From a virus (lineage: Duplodnaviria; Heunggongvirae; Uroviricota; Caudoviricetes), in the IMG/VR virus record IMGVR_UViG_2609460354_000008, positions 1 to 28,488 of that record: a DNA stretch of 28,488 nucleotides, one strand, 5' to 3'. The notes beneath the pieces were generated by a model. The model had not been told where the DNA came from, made no database searches, and saw only the letters and a list, made by a program, of their open reading frames with translations. Within the stretch, counting starts at the first letter, position 1; every line of letters starts with the position of its first letter. Shown here in pieces: positions 21,071-24,060 of this stretch. The position numbers and the translations under genes were made by a program.

Positions 21071-21343
21071 CTATTTGACTGCTGCCAGCAAAGCGTTACG
21101 GCGCATCTCGATACTTCGAATCCCCGCTTTGTCAATATTGCATTGTCCCAACGCCGAAAGCAGGCTCACATTCAGATCCAGACTGGCCCCATAGGTCAGC
21201 GGCTCGGGAATGACTGGCTGGGGAGTTTCAGTAGTCAGGCTTGCTGGCAACGGTACCGCCGGAATCGGTACGTAAACTGTTCGCGTACTTCCGCAACCGG
21301 TCAGCAGCGGCAGCAGGCACAGGACGTGAAGCACAATCATCAT
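21071..21343 (-). CDS. o-spanin (Rz1-like outer membrane lipoprotein)
   Basis: Out-of-frame ORF starting inside Rz; signal peptide with lipobox LLTGC, then Pro-rich sequence. Confidence 0.55.
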   Translation of the reverse strand: MMIVLHVLCLLPLLTGCGSTRTVYVPIPAVPLPASLTTETPQPVIPEPLTYGASLDLNVSLLSALGQCNIDKAGIRSIEMRRNALLAAVK

Positions 21344-21620
21344 CCGCAACAGCCACTTTGATATCTTCCTGGGTTCTCTGTGACTCCAGTGTGATCTGCT
21401 GTTTTGCATGCTGGTTAGCCTCCAGAACTGTATTGACGATTTGCAGTGATTGCAGGACGTTATTGGTAATGACAGTTGCCGATTTGGCATTTTGTACAGC
21501 CTCATCAGCACGTTTCTTTTCGTGCTGATATTTGCTGTAGTAGTGGTTGGCAGACCAGATGAAAGAACCGATGACAGTAAAGAAGAATGCAGCGATAACC
21601 AGCTTATAGCTCAACTTCAT
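21228..21620 (-). CDS. i-spanin (Rz-like)
   Basis: 130 aa; N-terminal TM helix then coiled-coil; immediately downstream of the endolysin. Confidence 0.7.
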   Translation of the reverse strand: MKLSYKLVIAAFFFTVIGSFIWSANHYYSKYQHEKKRADEAVQNAKSATVITNNVLQSLQIVNTVLEANQHAKQQITLESQRTQEDIKVAVADDDCASRPVPAAAADRLRKYANSLRTDSGGTVASKPDY

Positions 21621-22413: not shown

Positions 22414-22911
22414 CTAAATGATAGGGAACAGACTCACGGGGTAATTTAACGACAAAGCACGGAGTTGAAGATCCCCACAAGCCTGGAATAAAAAAGCCAG
22501 CGACAGGCTGGCAATGTGAGGGTAACGCAAAGTGCTTAGAAACAAAAAAAGGCCGCCATCGGCGACCTTCGAGGTATCTAGCGTGCTGGATACTTTCAGC
22601 TTCGCCTTCAATTCAGCGTTGATTTCTTTCAGGCGATCAACATCGTTTTTAAGTTTTTCAATGTCTTGCCCTTTATTATCAAGGTCGCGCTGAAGACCTT
22701 TAATAATTTCTGTTTGGGCCGCCTGTACTTCTCGTGTCGTCTGGAGAGACTTATCAATATCATCAACTTGGTTAATCAAGCGTGTACCGAAAAAGCCTAC
22801 AACTAACATAGTTATCCCAACCATAAAGTTGAGAACCCAGACTTTTGTTCCGGAAGCAGTGTTTGGAGTTTCGTCGATAAAGTGCACCTTATGCCAGTTA
22901 AAGTTACCCAA
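22414..22911 (-). CDS. Hypothetical TM plus coiled-coil ORF in the Q-holin spacer; no ATG (TTG start in track) and it reads through an intrinsic terminator; possibly a remnant or not expressed as drawn
   Basis: Protein-like N-terminal 110 aa (TM helix VWVLNFMVGITMLVVGFFG, heptad-rich KLKNDVDRLKEINAELKAKLK); C-terminal 50 aa look non-coding. Confidence 0.3.
   Translation of the reverse strand: MGNFNWHKVHFIDETPNTASGTKVWVLNFMVGITMLVVGFFGTRLINQVDDIDKSLQTTREVQAAQTEIIKGLQRDLDNKGQDIEKLKNDVDRLKEINAELKAKLKVSSTLDTSKVADGGLFLFLSTLRYPHIASLSLAFLFQACGDLQLRALSLNYPVSLFPII
22545..22575 (-). terminator. Rho-independent terminator on the minus strand (GGUCGCC-GAU-GGCGGCC then U7), tR'-like, upstream of the holin
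   Basis: 7-bp G/C-rich stem with one G-U pair and a 3-nt loop, followed by TTTTTTTGTTT. Confidence 0.6.
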
Positions 22912-22999
22912 CGTCTGCGCAGATCGTTAGATTCGGCAACATTGTAACTGGATAAGGAATAGAAAACCTTGGAATTTTAAGAAGAAACTGATTGATCGA

Positions 23000-23089
23000 T
23001 TATTTAACGAGCGAACACATCCATACACCCCAGACGGGTACTACGACAAAGGCCATGAAATAAGTAACTTTTGCTTGAATGTTTTGCAT
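23000..23089 (-). CDS. Small hydrophobic peptide ORF (29 aa, MQNIQAKVTYFMAFVVVPVWGVWMCSLVK), not in the ORF track
   Basis: ATG preceded by an AAGGAAG RBS about 4-6 nt upstream; a single TM-like segment; in the AT-rich Q-to-lysis spacer. Confidence 0.3.
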   Translation of the reverse strand: MQNIQAKVTYFMAFVVVPVWGVWMCSLVK

Positions 23090-23370
23090 TTCGCTTCCTT
23101 AGCAGTCCGATAAGTACTGTCTGCTCATCCAACCTAACGAATGTAGATCAGAATGACAAGTCTTTCGCGCTAATTTCAATTTGATATCTGTTCGTAAACA
23201 TGATGGCGCGAAATATTACGCATGAAGTGCTTCTACATCAACATAAAAGTTACTTTTTTTGTGTTCACAGCATGTAAAGTAAAAGCCCCGCACGATGGCG
23301 AGGCTGTTAATTCTTTGTCGACCAACAAAGCTATGGCGACGATATCAGATTTACATGAAATATAAGCGTT

Positions 23371-24060
23371 TCAGTTCGGTTTTGCAAGACTTACGTGCGA
23401 ACTTGTCGCCTTTTGTTGTGAACGTGATCGCGTTACTGAGATAAGCGCACCGCTATCGAGTCGCATAAAGCAGCTACGCATTGCCAACCAGTGAGGCAGG
23501 TATGTCTCTGTCCAGGTGGATTTCGCCACGCCAACCAGTTCCGCCAGCTTCTGGTATTCGTAGGCATCTTTCCCGACCAACCCTGCTTTGACATCCTGCG
23601 CTGCCAGCCATATCAGCTTCTTCAGGCGCTCCATGGTCTTGCCTGCCACCCTCTTCGCGCCGAGATACCCCCTGAATTCAGACCACGCCCACTGGGTGAT
23701 CGCCACCTGGTATTCAAAGCTGACGTTTTCACTGTAACTCCACAGCAACCACGCTTTCTGATGTTCTTCGAGAGACAGAACCGCGCGGCGCCATGAAGAT
23801 GTTGAGAACTCAACCTGGCTGACCAGTGCAATGGATGAACCTTTTGCGTACGACTGCTTACCGGAAATCGGCGGATTATCCAGCGTAATCATCTTGCCCG
23901 TTACCTCATCCAGAATGCGCGGCTTCTTTCGTTTATATGTACCAGTATCAAATTGTGCATGCTCCAGCCAGGCTTCAAGCTGGCCTTTCGTTGCTCCGCT
24001 CAAATCAGCAGTAGCCACAATGAGTTGCTCGCGGACATACTGTAAATATTGGGTATTCAT
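23371..24060 (-). CDS. Putative late-gene antiterminator Q (long Q-type); assignment by position
   Basis: 229 aa; translationally coupled to ylcG (ATGA overlap), downstream of rusA and upstream of the lysis cassette. Confidence 0.45.
   Translation of the reverse strand: MNTQYLQYVREQLIVATADLSGATKGQLEAWLEHAQFDTGTYKRKKPRILDEVTGKMITLDNPPISGKQSYAKGSSIALVSQVEFSTSSWRRAVLSLEEHQKAWLLWSYSENVSFEYQVAITQWAWSEFRGYLGAKRVAGKTMERLKKLIWLAAQDVKAGLVGKDAYEYQKLAELVGVAKSTWTETYLPHWLAMRSCFMRLDSGALISVTRSRSQQKATSSHVSLAKPN

What the first reader, a model, noticed from the sequence alone, without database searches (positions are those of the whole stretch)
22414..22911. Membrane/coiled-coil ORF in the Q-holin spacer that lacks an ATG and runs through a terminator
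The only long ORF between the Q-like gene and the holin encodes a protein-like N-terminal 110 aa with one TM helix and a heptad-rich coiled-coil segment. It has no ATG start or SD, only TTG. Its reading frame passes straight through a strong intrinsic terminator at 22545-22575 (encoding KVADGGLFLF) before reaching a stop at 22414. It could be a decayed moron, a protein whose mRNA ends without a stop codon, or a small membrane protein made only on Q-mediated read-through. Morons in this position in other lambdoid phages include toxin and porin genes.
Basis: partly seen in the sequence, partly recalled or inferred. Interest (0 to 1): 0.5.

Follow-up and report, generated by a model that had tools for sequence, protein, structure and literature searches.

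The report
Conserved prophage gene without stop codon
The odd reading frame is a real, conserved prophage gene for a small membrane protein. It appears to start at a weak non-standard codon and runs straight through its own transcription terminator, so most of its messages should lack a stop codon, a layout known so far only for two bacterial ribosome-rescue genes.

Summary
It is not a decayed moron. Homologues in about 60 fetched loci (Klebsiella, Enterobacter, Raoultella, Serratia; protein hits also in Salmonella and Kosakonia) evolve under purifying selection (dN/dS 0.04-0.35). It is the second gene of a conserved cassette: a strong promoter, a 29-aa hydrophobic peptide, a structured leader, a 111-codon membrane coiled-coil protein and an intrinsic terminator.

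Three features are conserved:
- A leader hairpin buries the Shine-Dalgarno sequence.
- The only universal start candidate is AUA (AUC here, 22878), because many relatives have no in-frame ATG/GTG/TTG.
- The terminator hairpin lies in frame with no stop before it. It keeps pairing through compensatory changes. Protein-level constraint ends at the hairpin, and tail lengths fit random sequence.

Best reading (confidence about 0.45): transcripts from the cassette promoter are non-stop and their product is tagged by tmRNA. Stable protein then needs Q read-through or failure of trans-translation. This resembles arfA/brfA control in a new setting.

A divergent Serratia rubidaea branch has a normal stop, so the layout is not universal. 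Protein function is unknown and nothing was tested experimentally.

The parts
23282..23387 (-). Context, not part of the cassette. A promoter-like site (TTGCAA-17-TATATT, 23387..23359) overlaps the end of Q. It is followed by a short isrJ-like RNA (23355..23282) that ends at a terminator (23305..23284). This is the probable PR'-tR' unit of this Q type.
   Evidence: Promoter and terminator scan. Rfam isrJ match, 64.9 bits, E=5e-10. isrJ matches appear only in four fetched loci; three of them (window, L005, L016) are shown to carry this Q type, and L012's Q domain was not tested. The Q type itself is established.
23204..23241 (-). The cassette's own promoter (P_cas). It has -35 TTGATG at 23241..23236, a 17-nt spacer, -10 TAATAT at 23218..23213, a GC-rich discriminator TTCGCGCC, and a probable start near A23204.
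   Evidence: The position and hexamers are conserved in nearly all loci; most relatives have TTGATA-16-TATAAT-GCCGCGCC, an 11/12 match. The same promoter follows three different Q-like genes, so it belongs to the cassette and not to PR'. Its activity is inferred, not measured.
23000..23089 (-). First cassette gene, a 29-aa hydrophobic peptide MQNIQAKVTYFMAFVVVPVWGVWMCSLVK with a strong SD (ctaaggaag).
   Evidence: Read directly from the sequence. Homologous peptides lie at a fixed distance (261-269 nt) upstream of the big ORF's conserved motif in the 15 distinct sequences the motif scan recovered, with ATG or TTG starts and a conserved SD. In nearly all other aligned loci the peptide's 3' end (...FSLIK*) is also conserved.
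22887..22957 (-). Leader hairpin. The 5' arm CCTTATCCAG (22957..22948) pairs with CTGGCATAAGG (22897..22887), which is the Shine-Dalgarno region. The apical hairpin is AACGATCTGCGCAGACGTT.
   Evidence: MFE fold of the window, -28.4 kcal/mol, z=-2.7. The same architecture appears in 22 of 26 distinct relatives, -20 to -31 kcal/mol, and in modified form in the Serratia group. On alignment A2, 80% of cells are paired against 29-53% in slid controls, and 10 pairs change on both sides. RNAalifold finds apical pairs with compensatory changes. No Rfam family matches.
22941..22946 (-). Invariant TAxAAT hexamer (TACAAT here) inside the 5' arm of the leader hairpin, with an invariant AAG about 18 nt upstream. 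It may be a weak internal promoter. Its role is unexplained.
   Evidence: T47, A48, A50, A51, T52 and A23, A24, G25 are invariant in A2. Their pairing partners vary or are unpaired, so the helix does not explain the conservation.
22876..22891 (-). Translation start region. SD-like TAAGGTG lies at 22891..22885, followed by a 6-nt spacer and ATC at 22878..22876, the inferred near-cognate start (ATA in most relatives).
   Evidence: L028, L044-46, L016, L017, L019 and L023-27 have no in-frame ATG/GTG/TTG between the upstream stop and the conserved ASG motif. The ATA/ATC codon and the SD-like core AGG upstream of it are invariant in all sequences, and the fuller TAAGG in most. An in-frame 3-nt indel and third-position variation begin just after this codon.
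22546..22878 (-). Conserved coding part, 111 codons from the inferred start. It contains a short acidic N-tail, a TM helix (residues 13-31, 22786..22842), a heptad coiled coil (residues 34-100, 22579..22779), and a C-terminal extension up to and including the terminator-coded KVADGGLF.
   Evidence: dN/dS 0.04-0.35. pN/pS by region is 0.42, 0.29, 0.26, then 0.76 in the hairpin. Hydropathy and heptads. Single helix in AlphaFold2. No Pfam, NCBIfam or PADLOC family; the best PHROG match is weak.
22544..22570 (-). Cassette terminator, in frame inside the ORF. The stem is GGTCGCC/GGCGGCC (extended by AA/TT), the loop is GAT, and the T7 tract is 22550..22544.
   Evidence: Terminator scan. The stem alone is -11.2 kcal/mol. 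Every main-clade locus has a hairpin plus T-tract at the same codon position, in at least 6 different stem sequences. 93.9% of cells are paired, 3 pairs change on both sides, and slid controls give 37-60%. Homology between cassettes ends here.
22414..22543 (-). Unconstrained read-through tail of the annotated ORF, including the second terminator-like site at 22512..22496 and the stop at 22416..22414.
   Evidence: Tails are unrelated between loci. They run 4-57 codons from the T-tract to the stop, median 22, mean 23.9, against 21.3 expected for random sequence. Segment 22530..22434 recurs at other distances in other loci, so it is a separate module; its association with the holin leader is inferred.

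Best explanation
The ORF is a genuine gene. It is the second gene of a self-contained two-gene cassette of the 'moron' type, inserted between the Q/PR'-tR' unit and the lysis genes. The cassette consists of:
- its own strong sigma-70 promoter (about 23241..23213);
- a conserved 5' UTR;
- a well-translated 29-aa hydrophobic peptide (23089..23000);
- a structured 113-nt leader;
- a 111-codon bitopic membrane coiled-coil protein;
- an intrinsic terminator.

Synthesis of the larger protein is throttled at three levels:
1. Its Shine-Dalgarno sequence is paired in a conserved leader hairpin.
2. It starts at a near-cognate codon (AUC here, AUA in relatives). Such codons initiate at roughly 1-2% of AUG.
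3. The cassette terminator lies in frame inside the ORF, with no stop codon before it.

Transcripts made in the lysogen from the cassette promoter therefore end at about 22544 without a stop codon. Ribosomes that reach that end should be rescued by tmRNA, and the product tagged for degradation. Polymerase made terminator-resistant by Q (loaded at PR' upstream) reads through to the next chance stop (22414 here). That gives a normal mRNA and a stable protein with an arbitrary tail. Stable protein is thus expected only after prophage induction, or when trans-translation fails.

Shown here: the gene is real and constrained; the cassette architecture; the hairpins and their covariation; the absence of canonical starts in many relatives; the absence of a stop before the terminator; the unconstrained tails.

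Inferred: promoter activity; the AUC/AUA start; termination at that site; tmRNA tagging; Q read-through.

Unknown: the biochemical function of the protein.
For: Reality of the gene:
- 16 protein relatives and about 60 loci.
- dN/dS 0.04-0.35.

Cassette:
- Homology blocks start at the small ORF and end at the terminator.
- The promoter and 5' UTR are conserved.
- The small peptide is conserved at a fixed spacing.
- The cassette follows three unrelated Q-like genes and precedes different holin types.

SD sequestration.

Start codon:
- Comparative evidence for AUA/AUC.
- Near-cognate starts initiate at about 1-2% of AUG, and only infC and pcnB are confirmed in E. coli (bioRxiv 10.1101/063800).

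In-frame terminator:
- Present in every main-clade locus, with compensatory stem changes.
- pN/pS is 0.26 up to the hairpin and 0.76, with reduced pS, inside it.
- Tail lengths match random expectation.

Precedent: an in-ORF terminator gives a non-stop mRNA and SsrA-dependent down-regulation in brfA and arfA (PMC6881298; PMC3989581, listed).

Tandem terminators follow the cassette in the window and in L009. This fits the need to insulate lysis genes from a strong upstream promoter.
Against: - Nothing here measures RNA ends, translation or tagging.
- A divergent Serratia rubidaea branch (L050, L051) has the same cassette, SD and ATA, but a TAA stop about 30 nt before the T-tract. The non-stop state is therefore not essential to the protein and may be a tolerated stop loss.
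- The leader hairpin would also block translation on Q read-through transcripts unless something opens it, such as RNase III, temperature or a trans-acting factor. The 'late protein' half of the model therefore has a gap.
- The invariant TAxAAT in the hairpin's 5' arm is unexplained. If it is a promoter, the translated mRNA would come from a polymerase that Q never modifies.
- No deposited phage genome carries the gene, and only 3 of 5426 complete E. coli genomes do.
- A closely coupled ribosome could itself suppress the terminator.
Confidence: 0.45

Rival explanations
1. Tolerated stop loss with no regulatory meaning. An ancestor lost the stop by a frameshift near the end of the coiled coil, and the frame now runs into the former 3' UTR and terminator. 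The protein works from whatever mRNA fraction reads through, or is released untagged by ArfA/ArfB. The terminator is there only to insulate the lysis genes from the cassette promoter.
For: - The S. rubidaea branch has a normal stop. Its 3' UTR is recognisably homologous to the main clade's C-terminal coding region, differing by small indels.
- Tails are random.
- Tandem terminators fit an insulation role.
- Weak initiation (SD plus ATA) is already present in the branch that has a stop, so it is not an adaptation to the non-stop state.
Against: - The stop-less state has persisted through divergence with dS above 2 and at least 6 independent hairpin replacements, without a single regained stop in 28 distinct sequences, or in the 10 metagenome loci fetched afterwards.
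- The new C-terminal extension is itself under purifying selection, pN/pS 0.26.
- A strong promoter feeding non-stop mRNA is costly unless it is useful.
Confidence: 0.25
2. Sensor of trans-translation failure, following arfA/brfA logic. The protein is meant to be made in the lysogen from the cassette promoter, or from the internal TAxAAT promoter whose transcripts would lack the anti-SD arm. It is normally destroyed through the SsrA tag. It accumulates only when tmRNA is saturated or disabled, and then acts on the membrane, for example in abortive infection, growth arrest or induction.
For: - The architecture matches brfA and arfA.
- By comparison from memory with rrnB P1 (not tested here), the cassette promoter has a 16-nt spacer and a GC-rich discriminator before an A start.
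- A near-cognate start is sensitive to IF3. IF3 excludes non-canonical start codons (PMC9723500, abstract); the infC autoregulation example is from my own knowledge. supplies only the weakness and rarity of such starts.
- The invariant TAxAAT lies inside the 5' arm, like the IS10 fold-back arrangement (own knowledge: Davis, Simons and Kleckner 1985).
Against: - There is no homology to any rescue, defence or toxin family.
- The internal promoter lacks a recognisable -35 element and fell below the scan threshold.
- The branch with a normal stop argues that tagging is dispensable.
- The idea is entirely untested.
Confidence: 0.15
3. Translation-coupled attenuator. The point is the terminator, not the protein end. 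A ribosome translating the ORF close behind RNA polymerase prevents the hairpin from forming, so the amount of transcription entering the downstream genes (tRNAs, methylase or lysis genes in different loci) reports translation of the ORF.
For: - The hairpin always sits in frame at the same codon.
- Downstream cargo differs but always follows the terminator.
Against: - Downstream of the cassette lie lethal lysis genes and a second terminator. Leaky read-through in a lysogen would be harmful.
- Weak initiation (AUA, buried SD) makes coupled translation rare.
- Q antitermination already provides read-through.
- Protein-level constraint over the whole ORF is not needed for a leader peptide.
Confidence: 0.07
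4. Pseudogene or non-coding conserved DNA. The frame is open by chance or is a decaying remnant.
For: - No canonical start codon is conserved.
- There is no stop before the terminator.
- No family annotation exists, and PGAP calls it 'hypothetical protein'.
Against: - dN/dS is 0.04-0.35 with saturated synonymous sites.
- Length is constant at 109-111 codons, with only in-frame indels.
- The TM helix and heptad pattern are conserved.
Confidence: 0.03

Closest known systems
arfA (E. coli) and brfA (B. subtilis): genes expressed from non-stop mRNA
   Same: The ORF runs through a hairpin or rho-independent terminator that precedes the stop codon, so the mRNA lacks a stop and the product is SsrA-tagged and kept low (PMC6881298). 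The arrangement is conserved among homologues, and the C-terminal part that is encoded but not transcribed is dispensable.
   Different: - Those proteins are small soluble ribosome-rescue factors, and the logic is a back-up for tmRNA.
- This one is a 111-aa membrane coiled-coil protein in a prophage cassette, with no similarity to them.
- It lies where Q antitermination can override the terminator.
- It also has a near-cognate start and a buried SD.
- Termination and tagging have not been shown here.
Lambdoid 'morons': autonomous promoter-gene-terminator inserts such as bor, lom, stx and nmpC between Q and the lysis genes
   Same: It has its own conserved promoter and terminator, sits in the Q-to-holin spacer, is present in few related prophages (3 of 5426 E. 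coli genomes), and is independent of the flanking Q and holin types.
   Different: Known morons have ordinary start and stop codons. Here the terminator is inside the reading frame and the start is non-canonical. No virulence or fitness function is known.
Translationally silent read-through mRNAs: IS10 transposase fold-back inhibition (own knowledge) and Gifsy-1 isrK-orf45-anrP (PMC4825925)
   Same: An upstream segment of the same transcript pairs with the ribosome-binding site of a downstream gene and keeps it untranslated. The Gifsy-1 case lies in the same kind of Q-proximal prophage region.
   Different: No activating sRNA or alternative fold was found here. The isrJ-like RNA shows no special complementarity. 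The sequences are unrelated.
infC and pcnB: the confirmed near-cognate (AUU) start codons of E. coli
   Same: A conserved non-AUG/GUG/UUG start follows a good SD and implies very low, IF3-sensitive initiation (10.1101/063800).
   Different: The codon is AUA or AUC, not AUU. The start is inferred from comparative sequence only, and no autoregulatory logic is known.
Rz-type i-spanins
   Same: An N-terminal TM helix followed by a long coiled coil, encoded next to the lysis genes. There is a weak match to PHROG 739, 'Rz-like spanin' (E=1.6e-4).
   Different: - There is no embedded or adjacent lipoprotein partner.
- It lies upstream of the holin.
- The window has its own Rz/Rz1 pair at 21228..21620.
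- Profile comparison with that Rz gives probability 0.2%.

Membership tests
Non-stop-mRNA-regulated genes (arfA/brfA type of control) | A terminator or processing hairpin inside the ORF, upstream of the first in-frame stop | tested here: met
   Stem 22570..22548 plus a T7 tract lie in frame, and the stop is at 22414.
Non-stop-mRNA-regulated genes (arfA/brfA type of control) | The arrangement is conserved among homologues, and the sequence beyond the hairpin is unconstrained | tested here: met
   All 28 distinct main-clade sequences show it, as do the 10 metagenome loci fetched afterwards. Tails have a median of 22 codons, as for random sequence. pN/pS rises to 0.76 in the hairpin. Exception: the S. 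rubidaea branch has a stop.
Non-stop-mRNA-regulated genes (arfA/brfA type of control) | The mRNA 3' end maps to the hairpin, and the product is SsrA-tagged and raised in ssrA/smpB mutants | not testable with these tools
   This needs Term-seq or 3' RACE, plus western blots or mass spectrometry in ssrA backgrounds.
ArfA/BrfA protein families (ribosome rescue factors) | Sequence homology to ArfA or BrfA | tested here: not met
   No Pfam or NCBIfam hit above cut-off. The protein is a TM helix plus coiled coil.
Moron (autonomous prophage cassette) | Its own promoter upstream and its own terminator downstream, with boundaries that coincide with these | tested here: met
   Conserved TTGATA-16-TATAAT promoter (window: TTGATG-17-TAATAT), and homology ends at the terminator. 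Promoter activity itself was not measured.
Moron (autonomous prophage cassette) | Patchy presence among otherwise related phages, independent of neighbouring modules | tested here: met
   Present in 3 of 5426 E. coli genomes. It follows three Q-like types and precedes several holin types.
Rz-like i-spanin | A partner o-spanin lipoprotein gene, embedded or adjacent | tested here: not met
   No lipobox-containing ORF in any forward frame of 22414..23000. Rz and Rz1 are annotated elsewhere.
Rz-like i-spanin | Sequence or profile homology to known Rz proteins | tested here: not met
   PHROG 739 gives E=1.6e-4, only over coiled-coil-rich sequence. hhalign against the window's Rz gives probability 0.2%.
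DivIC/FtsB (PF04977) | Pfam score above the gathering cut-off | tested here: not met
   14.0 bits against a cut-off of 28.9, E=0.046. Precomputed PF04977 hits are listed for the S. rubidaea relatives P0028, P0042 and P0045. The hit for P0028 is marked faint.
Genes with a near-cognate start (infC/pcnB type) | A conserved non-AUG/GUG/UUG codon at correct SD spacing, with no canonical alternative | tested here: met
   ATA or ATC is invariant, 6-8 nt after TAAGG. At least six lineages have no in-frame ATG/GTG/TTG upstream of the conserved N-terminus.
Genes with a near-cognate start (infC/pcnB type) | Initiation at that codon demonstrated by N-terminal sequencing, toeprint or Ribo-RET | not testable with these tools
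   Experimental.

The most novel reading that the evidence does not exclude
The cassette is a prophage-borne monitor of the host's translation state. A promoter with an rRNA-like layout (ppGpp-sensitive), an IF3-sensitive AUA/AUC start and a stop-less mRNA together ensure that the membrane coiled-coil protein accumulates only when trans-translation and initiation fidelity collapse. It would then act as an effector, for example in abortive infection, growth arrest or an induction or lysis trigger. This would be the first non-rescue-factor gene, and the first phage gene, controlled by the arfA/brfA non-stop principle.
Probability: 0.15. Interest if true: 0.85.

Novelty: new variant of a known kind. 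Interest (0 to 1): 0.65.

Why it matters
To my knowledge (from reading, not a systematic search), conserved genes that deliberately lack a stop codon ahead of their terminator are known only for the ribosome-rescue factors ArfA and BrfA. A third, unrelated family would show that non-stop mRNA is a more general gating device. In this family the product is a membrane protein, and the gene sits where phage Q antitermination can restore a stop codon. That would link prophage induction, or host trans-translation capacity, to the stability of a phage protein.

The family would also add a conserved AUA/AUC initiation codon to the very short list of natural near-cognate starts in enterobacteria.

In practice, gene callers mis-annotate every member, with wrong starts and spurious variable C-termini. 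The 29-aa partner peptide and the structured leader are not annotated at all.

Tried and rejected
- **Pseudogene or decay.** Rejected by dN/dS and constant length.
- **Programmed frameshift or transcriptional slippage on the T-run to reach a nearby stop.** The window has TAA in the +1 frame 3 codons after the T-run. By my own reading of the sequences printed (not a scripted count), other loci have no consistent near stop in either alternative frame.
- **Spanin pair.** No embedded lipoprotein ORF and no homology to the window's Rz.
- **The conserved strong promoter as PR', with the in-ORF terminator as tR'.** Rejected because the same promoter follows three unrelated Q-like genes. For the loci examined, a promoter plus short RNA plus terminator unit also lies beside the Q gene: the window, L009 and L050 by scan, and an isrJ match in L005, L012 and L016.
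- **isrJ-like RNA as a trans-activator of the leader, by analogy with IsrK.** The duplex energy is no better than 61% of shuffles.
- **RNAalifold on the sequence alignment.** It recovered only the apical hairpin because of indels. The full helix was tested by per-sequence folding and column counts instead.
- **Family assignment.** Pfam, PHROG, NCBIfam, PADLOC and PDB sequence searches gave only coiled-coil noise.
- **Fold search.** Not run, because the model is one long helix and matches would be meaningless.
- **Deposited phage genomes.** tblastn against 50,697 records gave no hit.
- **Literature.** A search for the RefSeq accession found nothing.
- **P0027-type relatives with a normal stop.** Fetching their loci failed. 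The only viral contig returned was the L028 contig already held, and the metagenome scan returned only main-clade loci.
Full report
**What is there**

On the minus strand the window is the late region of a DLP12-like lambdoid prophage. It is 100% identical to E. coli 2012C-4221. The elements, in order, are:
- rusA, ylcG, and Q at 23371..24060 (Pfam Phage_antiter_Q, E=8e-92).
- A promoter-like site overlapping the end of Q, and a 74-nt isrJ-like RNA ending at a terminator, 23387..23282.
- The roughly 900-nt spacer that holds the finding.
- A LydA-type holin, a GH24 endolysin, and Rz/Rz1.

The ORF 22414..22911 exists as described. Inside it, in frame, lies a canonical intrinsic terminator. Its stem is GGTCGCC/GGCGGCC, its loop is GAT, and its T7 tract is 22550..22544. 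A second terminator-like site lies at 22512..22496. RefSeq annotates 22414..22887 (GTG start) as hypothetical protein WP_032172870.1.

**It is a real gene**

A search of 5.8 billion proteins found 16 relatives in Klebsiella, Salmonella, Enterobacter, Kosakonia and Serratia. Scans of genomes, viral contigs and metagenomes, together with look-ups of the contigs that encode individual relatives, fetched about 60 loci.
- Pairwise dN/dS is 0.04-0.35, while dS reaches 1-2.
- The distance from the conserved N-terminal Ile codon to the T-tract is 109-111 codons in every clade.
- The protein has a hydrophobic segment at residues 13-31, followed by about 67 residues in one heptad register.
- AlphaFold2 models it as one long helix.
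- It matches no Pfam, NCBIfam or PADLOC family. The best PHROG hit is weak ('Rz-like spanin', E=1.6e-4). PDB profile hits are generic coiled coils.
- The family is small: 17 clusters with E<1e-10 among 1.84 billion representatives.
- It occurs in 3 of 5426 complete E. coli genomes and in no deposited phage genome.

**It belongs to a cassette**

BLAST between the window and relatives shows a homology block from about 23105 to about 22545, ending at the terminator. Looser alignment extends the block upstream. A promoter sits 120-153 nt before a small ORF in nearly all loci. In most relatives it is TTGATA-16-TATAAT followed by GCCGCGCC and an A. In the window it is TTGATG-17-TAATAT-TTCGCGCC-A, 23241..23204. 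The 5' UTR is conserved as well.

The small ORF (23089..23000) encodes a 29-aa hydrophobic peptide with a strong SD. It is conserved at a fixed spacing from the big ORF.

The same cassette follows three unrelated Q-like genes and precedes different holins. Sometimes tRNAs or a methyltransferase lie in between. For the loci examined, a promoter plus short RNA plus terminator unit also lies beside the Q gene. I therefore read the conserved promoter as the cassette's own, not as PR'. By comparison from memory with rrnB P1, its 16-nt spacer and GC-rich discriminator suggest stringent control. That point is an inference.

**The start**

The comparative picture is stronger. In L028, L044-46, L016, L017, L019, L023-27 and several metagenome loci there is no in-frame ATG, GTG or TTG anywhere between the upstream stop and the conserved N-terminal motif N-x-A-S-G-x-K-V-W.
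- The window's GTG is GTA in Klebsiella.
- The TTG is GTC in other clades.
- What is invariant is the SD-like core AGG (TAAGG(T/A) in most) followed 6-8 nt later by ATA, or ATC in the window and Klebsiella (22878..22876).
- Codon-like variation and an in-frame indel begin immediately after that codon.

The most economical reading is initiation at AUA/AUC. In E. coli such near-cognates initiate at about 1-2% of AUG, and only infC and pcnB are confirmed natural cases (10.1101/063800).

**The leader**

The 113 nt between the small ORF and the start fold into a long irregular hairpin. Its basal helix pairs CCUUAUCCAG with CUGG(C)AUAAGG, which is the SD.
- Window: -28.4 kcal/mol, z=-2.7.
- The same architecture appears in 22 of 26 distinct relatives, and in a variant form in Serratia.
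- On the sequence alignment, 80% of cells are paired against 29-53% in slid controls, and ten pairs change on both sides.
- It matches no Rfam family.

Inside the 5' arm a hexamer TAxAAT is invariant, and so is an AAG 18 nt upstream, although their pairing partners vary. This could be a weak internal promoter whose transcripts would lack the anti-SD arm. I could not settle this.

**The end**

In every main-clade sequence the frame runs into a hairpin plus T-tract that begins at the same codon. This holds for all 28 distinct sequences and for the 10 metagenome loci.
- The stems differ: GGUCGCC/GGCGGCC, GCUGCCC/GGGCGGC, GCCACC-UUCG-GGUGGC, GCUGCC/GGCAGC, GCCACC-UAAG-GGUGGC and ACCACC/GGUGGU.
- They keep pairing: 93.9% of cells are paired, three pairs have double changes, and slid controls give 37-60%.
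- The window-type hairpin is shifted by one nucleotite relative to the codons, which suggests the hairpin has been rebuilt while the frame was kept (my reading of the alignment).
- pN/pS is 0.42, 0.29 and 0.26 in the N-terminal/TM, coiled-coil and C-terminal extension segments. It is 0.76, with reduced pS, in the hairpin codons. Protein-level constraint therefore stops where RNA-level constraint begins.
- Beyond the T-tract the sequences are unrelated. The first stop comes after 4-57 codons (median 22, mean 23.9), as expected for random sequence, where the mean would be 21.3.

**Exception**

A divergent branch in Serratia rubidaea and relatives (P0028, P0043; loci L050, L051) has the same cassette: a 30-aa peptide, TTAAAAT, and TAAGGTGG plus ATA. 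It ends with TAA about 30 nt before the terminator's T-tract. Its 3' UTR aligns with the main clade's C-terminal coding region apart from small indels, by my reading of the sequences. Two further clusters, P0027 and P0030, also end right after the coiled coil. The non-stop state is therefore a derived or alternative state, not a requirement of the protein.

**How it most likely works**

Transcripts from the cassette promoter should end at about 22544 and so carry the big ORF without a stop codon. By established knowledge of trans-translation, and by the brfA/arfA precedent (PMC6881298), ribosomes reaching that end are rescued by tmRNA and the product is tagged and degraded.

RNA polymerase modified by Q at PR' ignores the terminators. 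It yields an mRNA with a stop (22414 here) and a stable protein with an arbitrary tail. With the buried SD and the near-cognate start, the gene is held very low in the lysogen. It can yield stable product only after induction, or if trans-translation fails. I give this 0.45.

The main weaknesses are:
- The branch with a stop codon.
- The leader hairpin would also silence Q read-through transcripts unless it is opened.
- There are no experimental data.

The rivals are:
- A tolerated stop loss with the terminator serving only as insulation (0.25).
- A true tmRNA-failure sensor (0.15).
- A translation-coupled attenuator (0.07).
- A pseudogene (0.03).

**Comparison and novelty**

The control principle is that of arfA/brfA, but the protein is unrelated to them. 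It fails membership of the rescue-factor families and of the spanins: it has no partner lipoprotein and no homology. As a cassette it meets the structural definition of a moron.

The combination is not described in anything I could find. It consists of an autonomous cassette in the Q-to-lysis spacer, a conserved AUA/AUC start, an SD-sequestering leader, and a conserved in-frame terminator. I rate it a new variant of a known kind, with interest 0.65.

Noticed in passing
window 23000..23089 (-): An unannotated 29-aa hydrophobic peptide gene (MQNIQAKVTYFMAFVVVPVWGVWMCSLVK) with a strong SD. It is conserved with ATG or TTG starts at a fixed distance upstream of the big ORF in the loci recovered. 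PGAP does not call it in the identical E. coli record.
   Followed up: partly
window 23204..23241 (-); L009 2642..2669; most other loci: A conserved strong promoter, TTGATA-16-TATAAT, followed by the GC-rich discriminator GCCGCGCC and an A. The layout resembles rrnB P1 and suggests ppGpp-sensitive transcription of the cassette. The 115-150-nt 5' UTR behind it is also conserved.
   Followed up: partly
window 22941..22946 (-) and 22966..22968 (-): An invariant TAxAAT hexamer, and an invariant AAG about 18 nt upstream, inside and just before the 5' arm of the leader hairpin. Base pairing does not explain their conservation. They may form a weak internal promoter, which would give an IS10-like fold-back arrangement.
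   Followed up: partly
window 23282..23387 (-): An isrJ-like short RNA (Rfam RF01393, 64.9 bits) with its own promoter, overlapping the end of Q, and its own terminator. It is probably the PR'-tR' transcript of this Q type. In Gifsy-1, isrJ lies in the same Q-proximal region (PMC4825925).
   Followed up: partly
window 22434..22530 (-): A segment containing the second terminator-like hairpin (22512..22496) and a third hairpin (22479..22458). It recurs in L008, L009, L030, L039, L044 and L048 at varying distances from the cassette. It appears to be a separate module, possibly the holin leader, and not part of the ORF.
   Followed up: no
L050 3700..3740; L051 3700..3745: In the Serratia rubidaea-type cassettes, the region where the cassette promoter would be carries short direct repeats (gatactaaaac x2-3; ctcaatagcg.tctatagg x2). 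This suggests an operator or iteron-like element.
   Followed up: no
L015, L023, L028, L036, L043 (downstream of the cassette terminator): One to three tRNA genes lie directly after the cassette terminator in several relatives, plus an STnc100 match in L023 and an isrI match in L048. An N6/N4 methyltransferase follows in the Serratia loci. The same slot collects different cargo.
   Followed up: no
L015 1453..2424: In the L015-L027 group, the cassette is preceded by a cI-like repressor on the opposite strand, a cro-like gene and a 73-aa fragment resembling the C-terminus of a Q-like protein, not by a full Q gene. This may reflect a deleted or rearranged prophage type.
   Followed up: no
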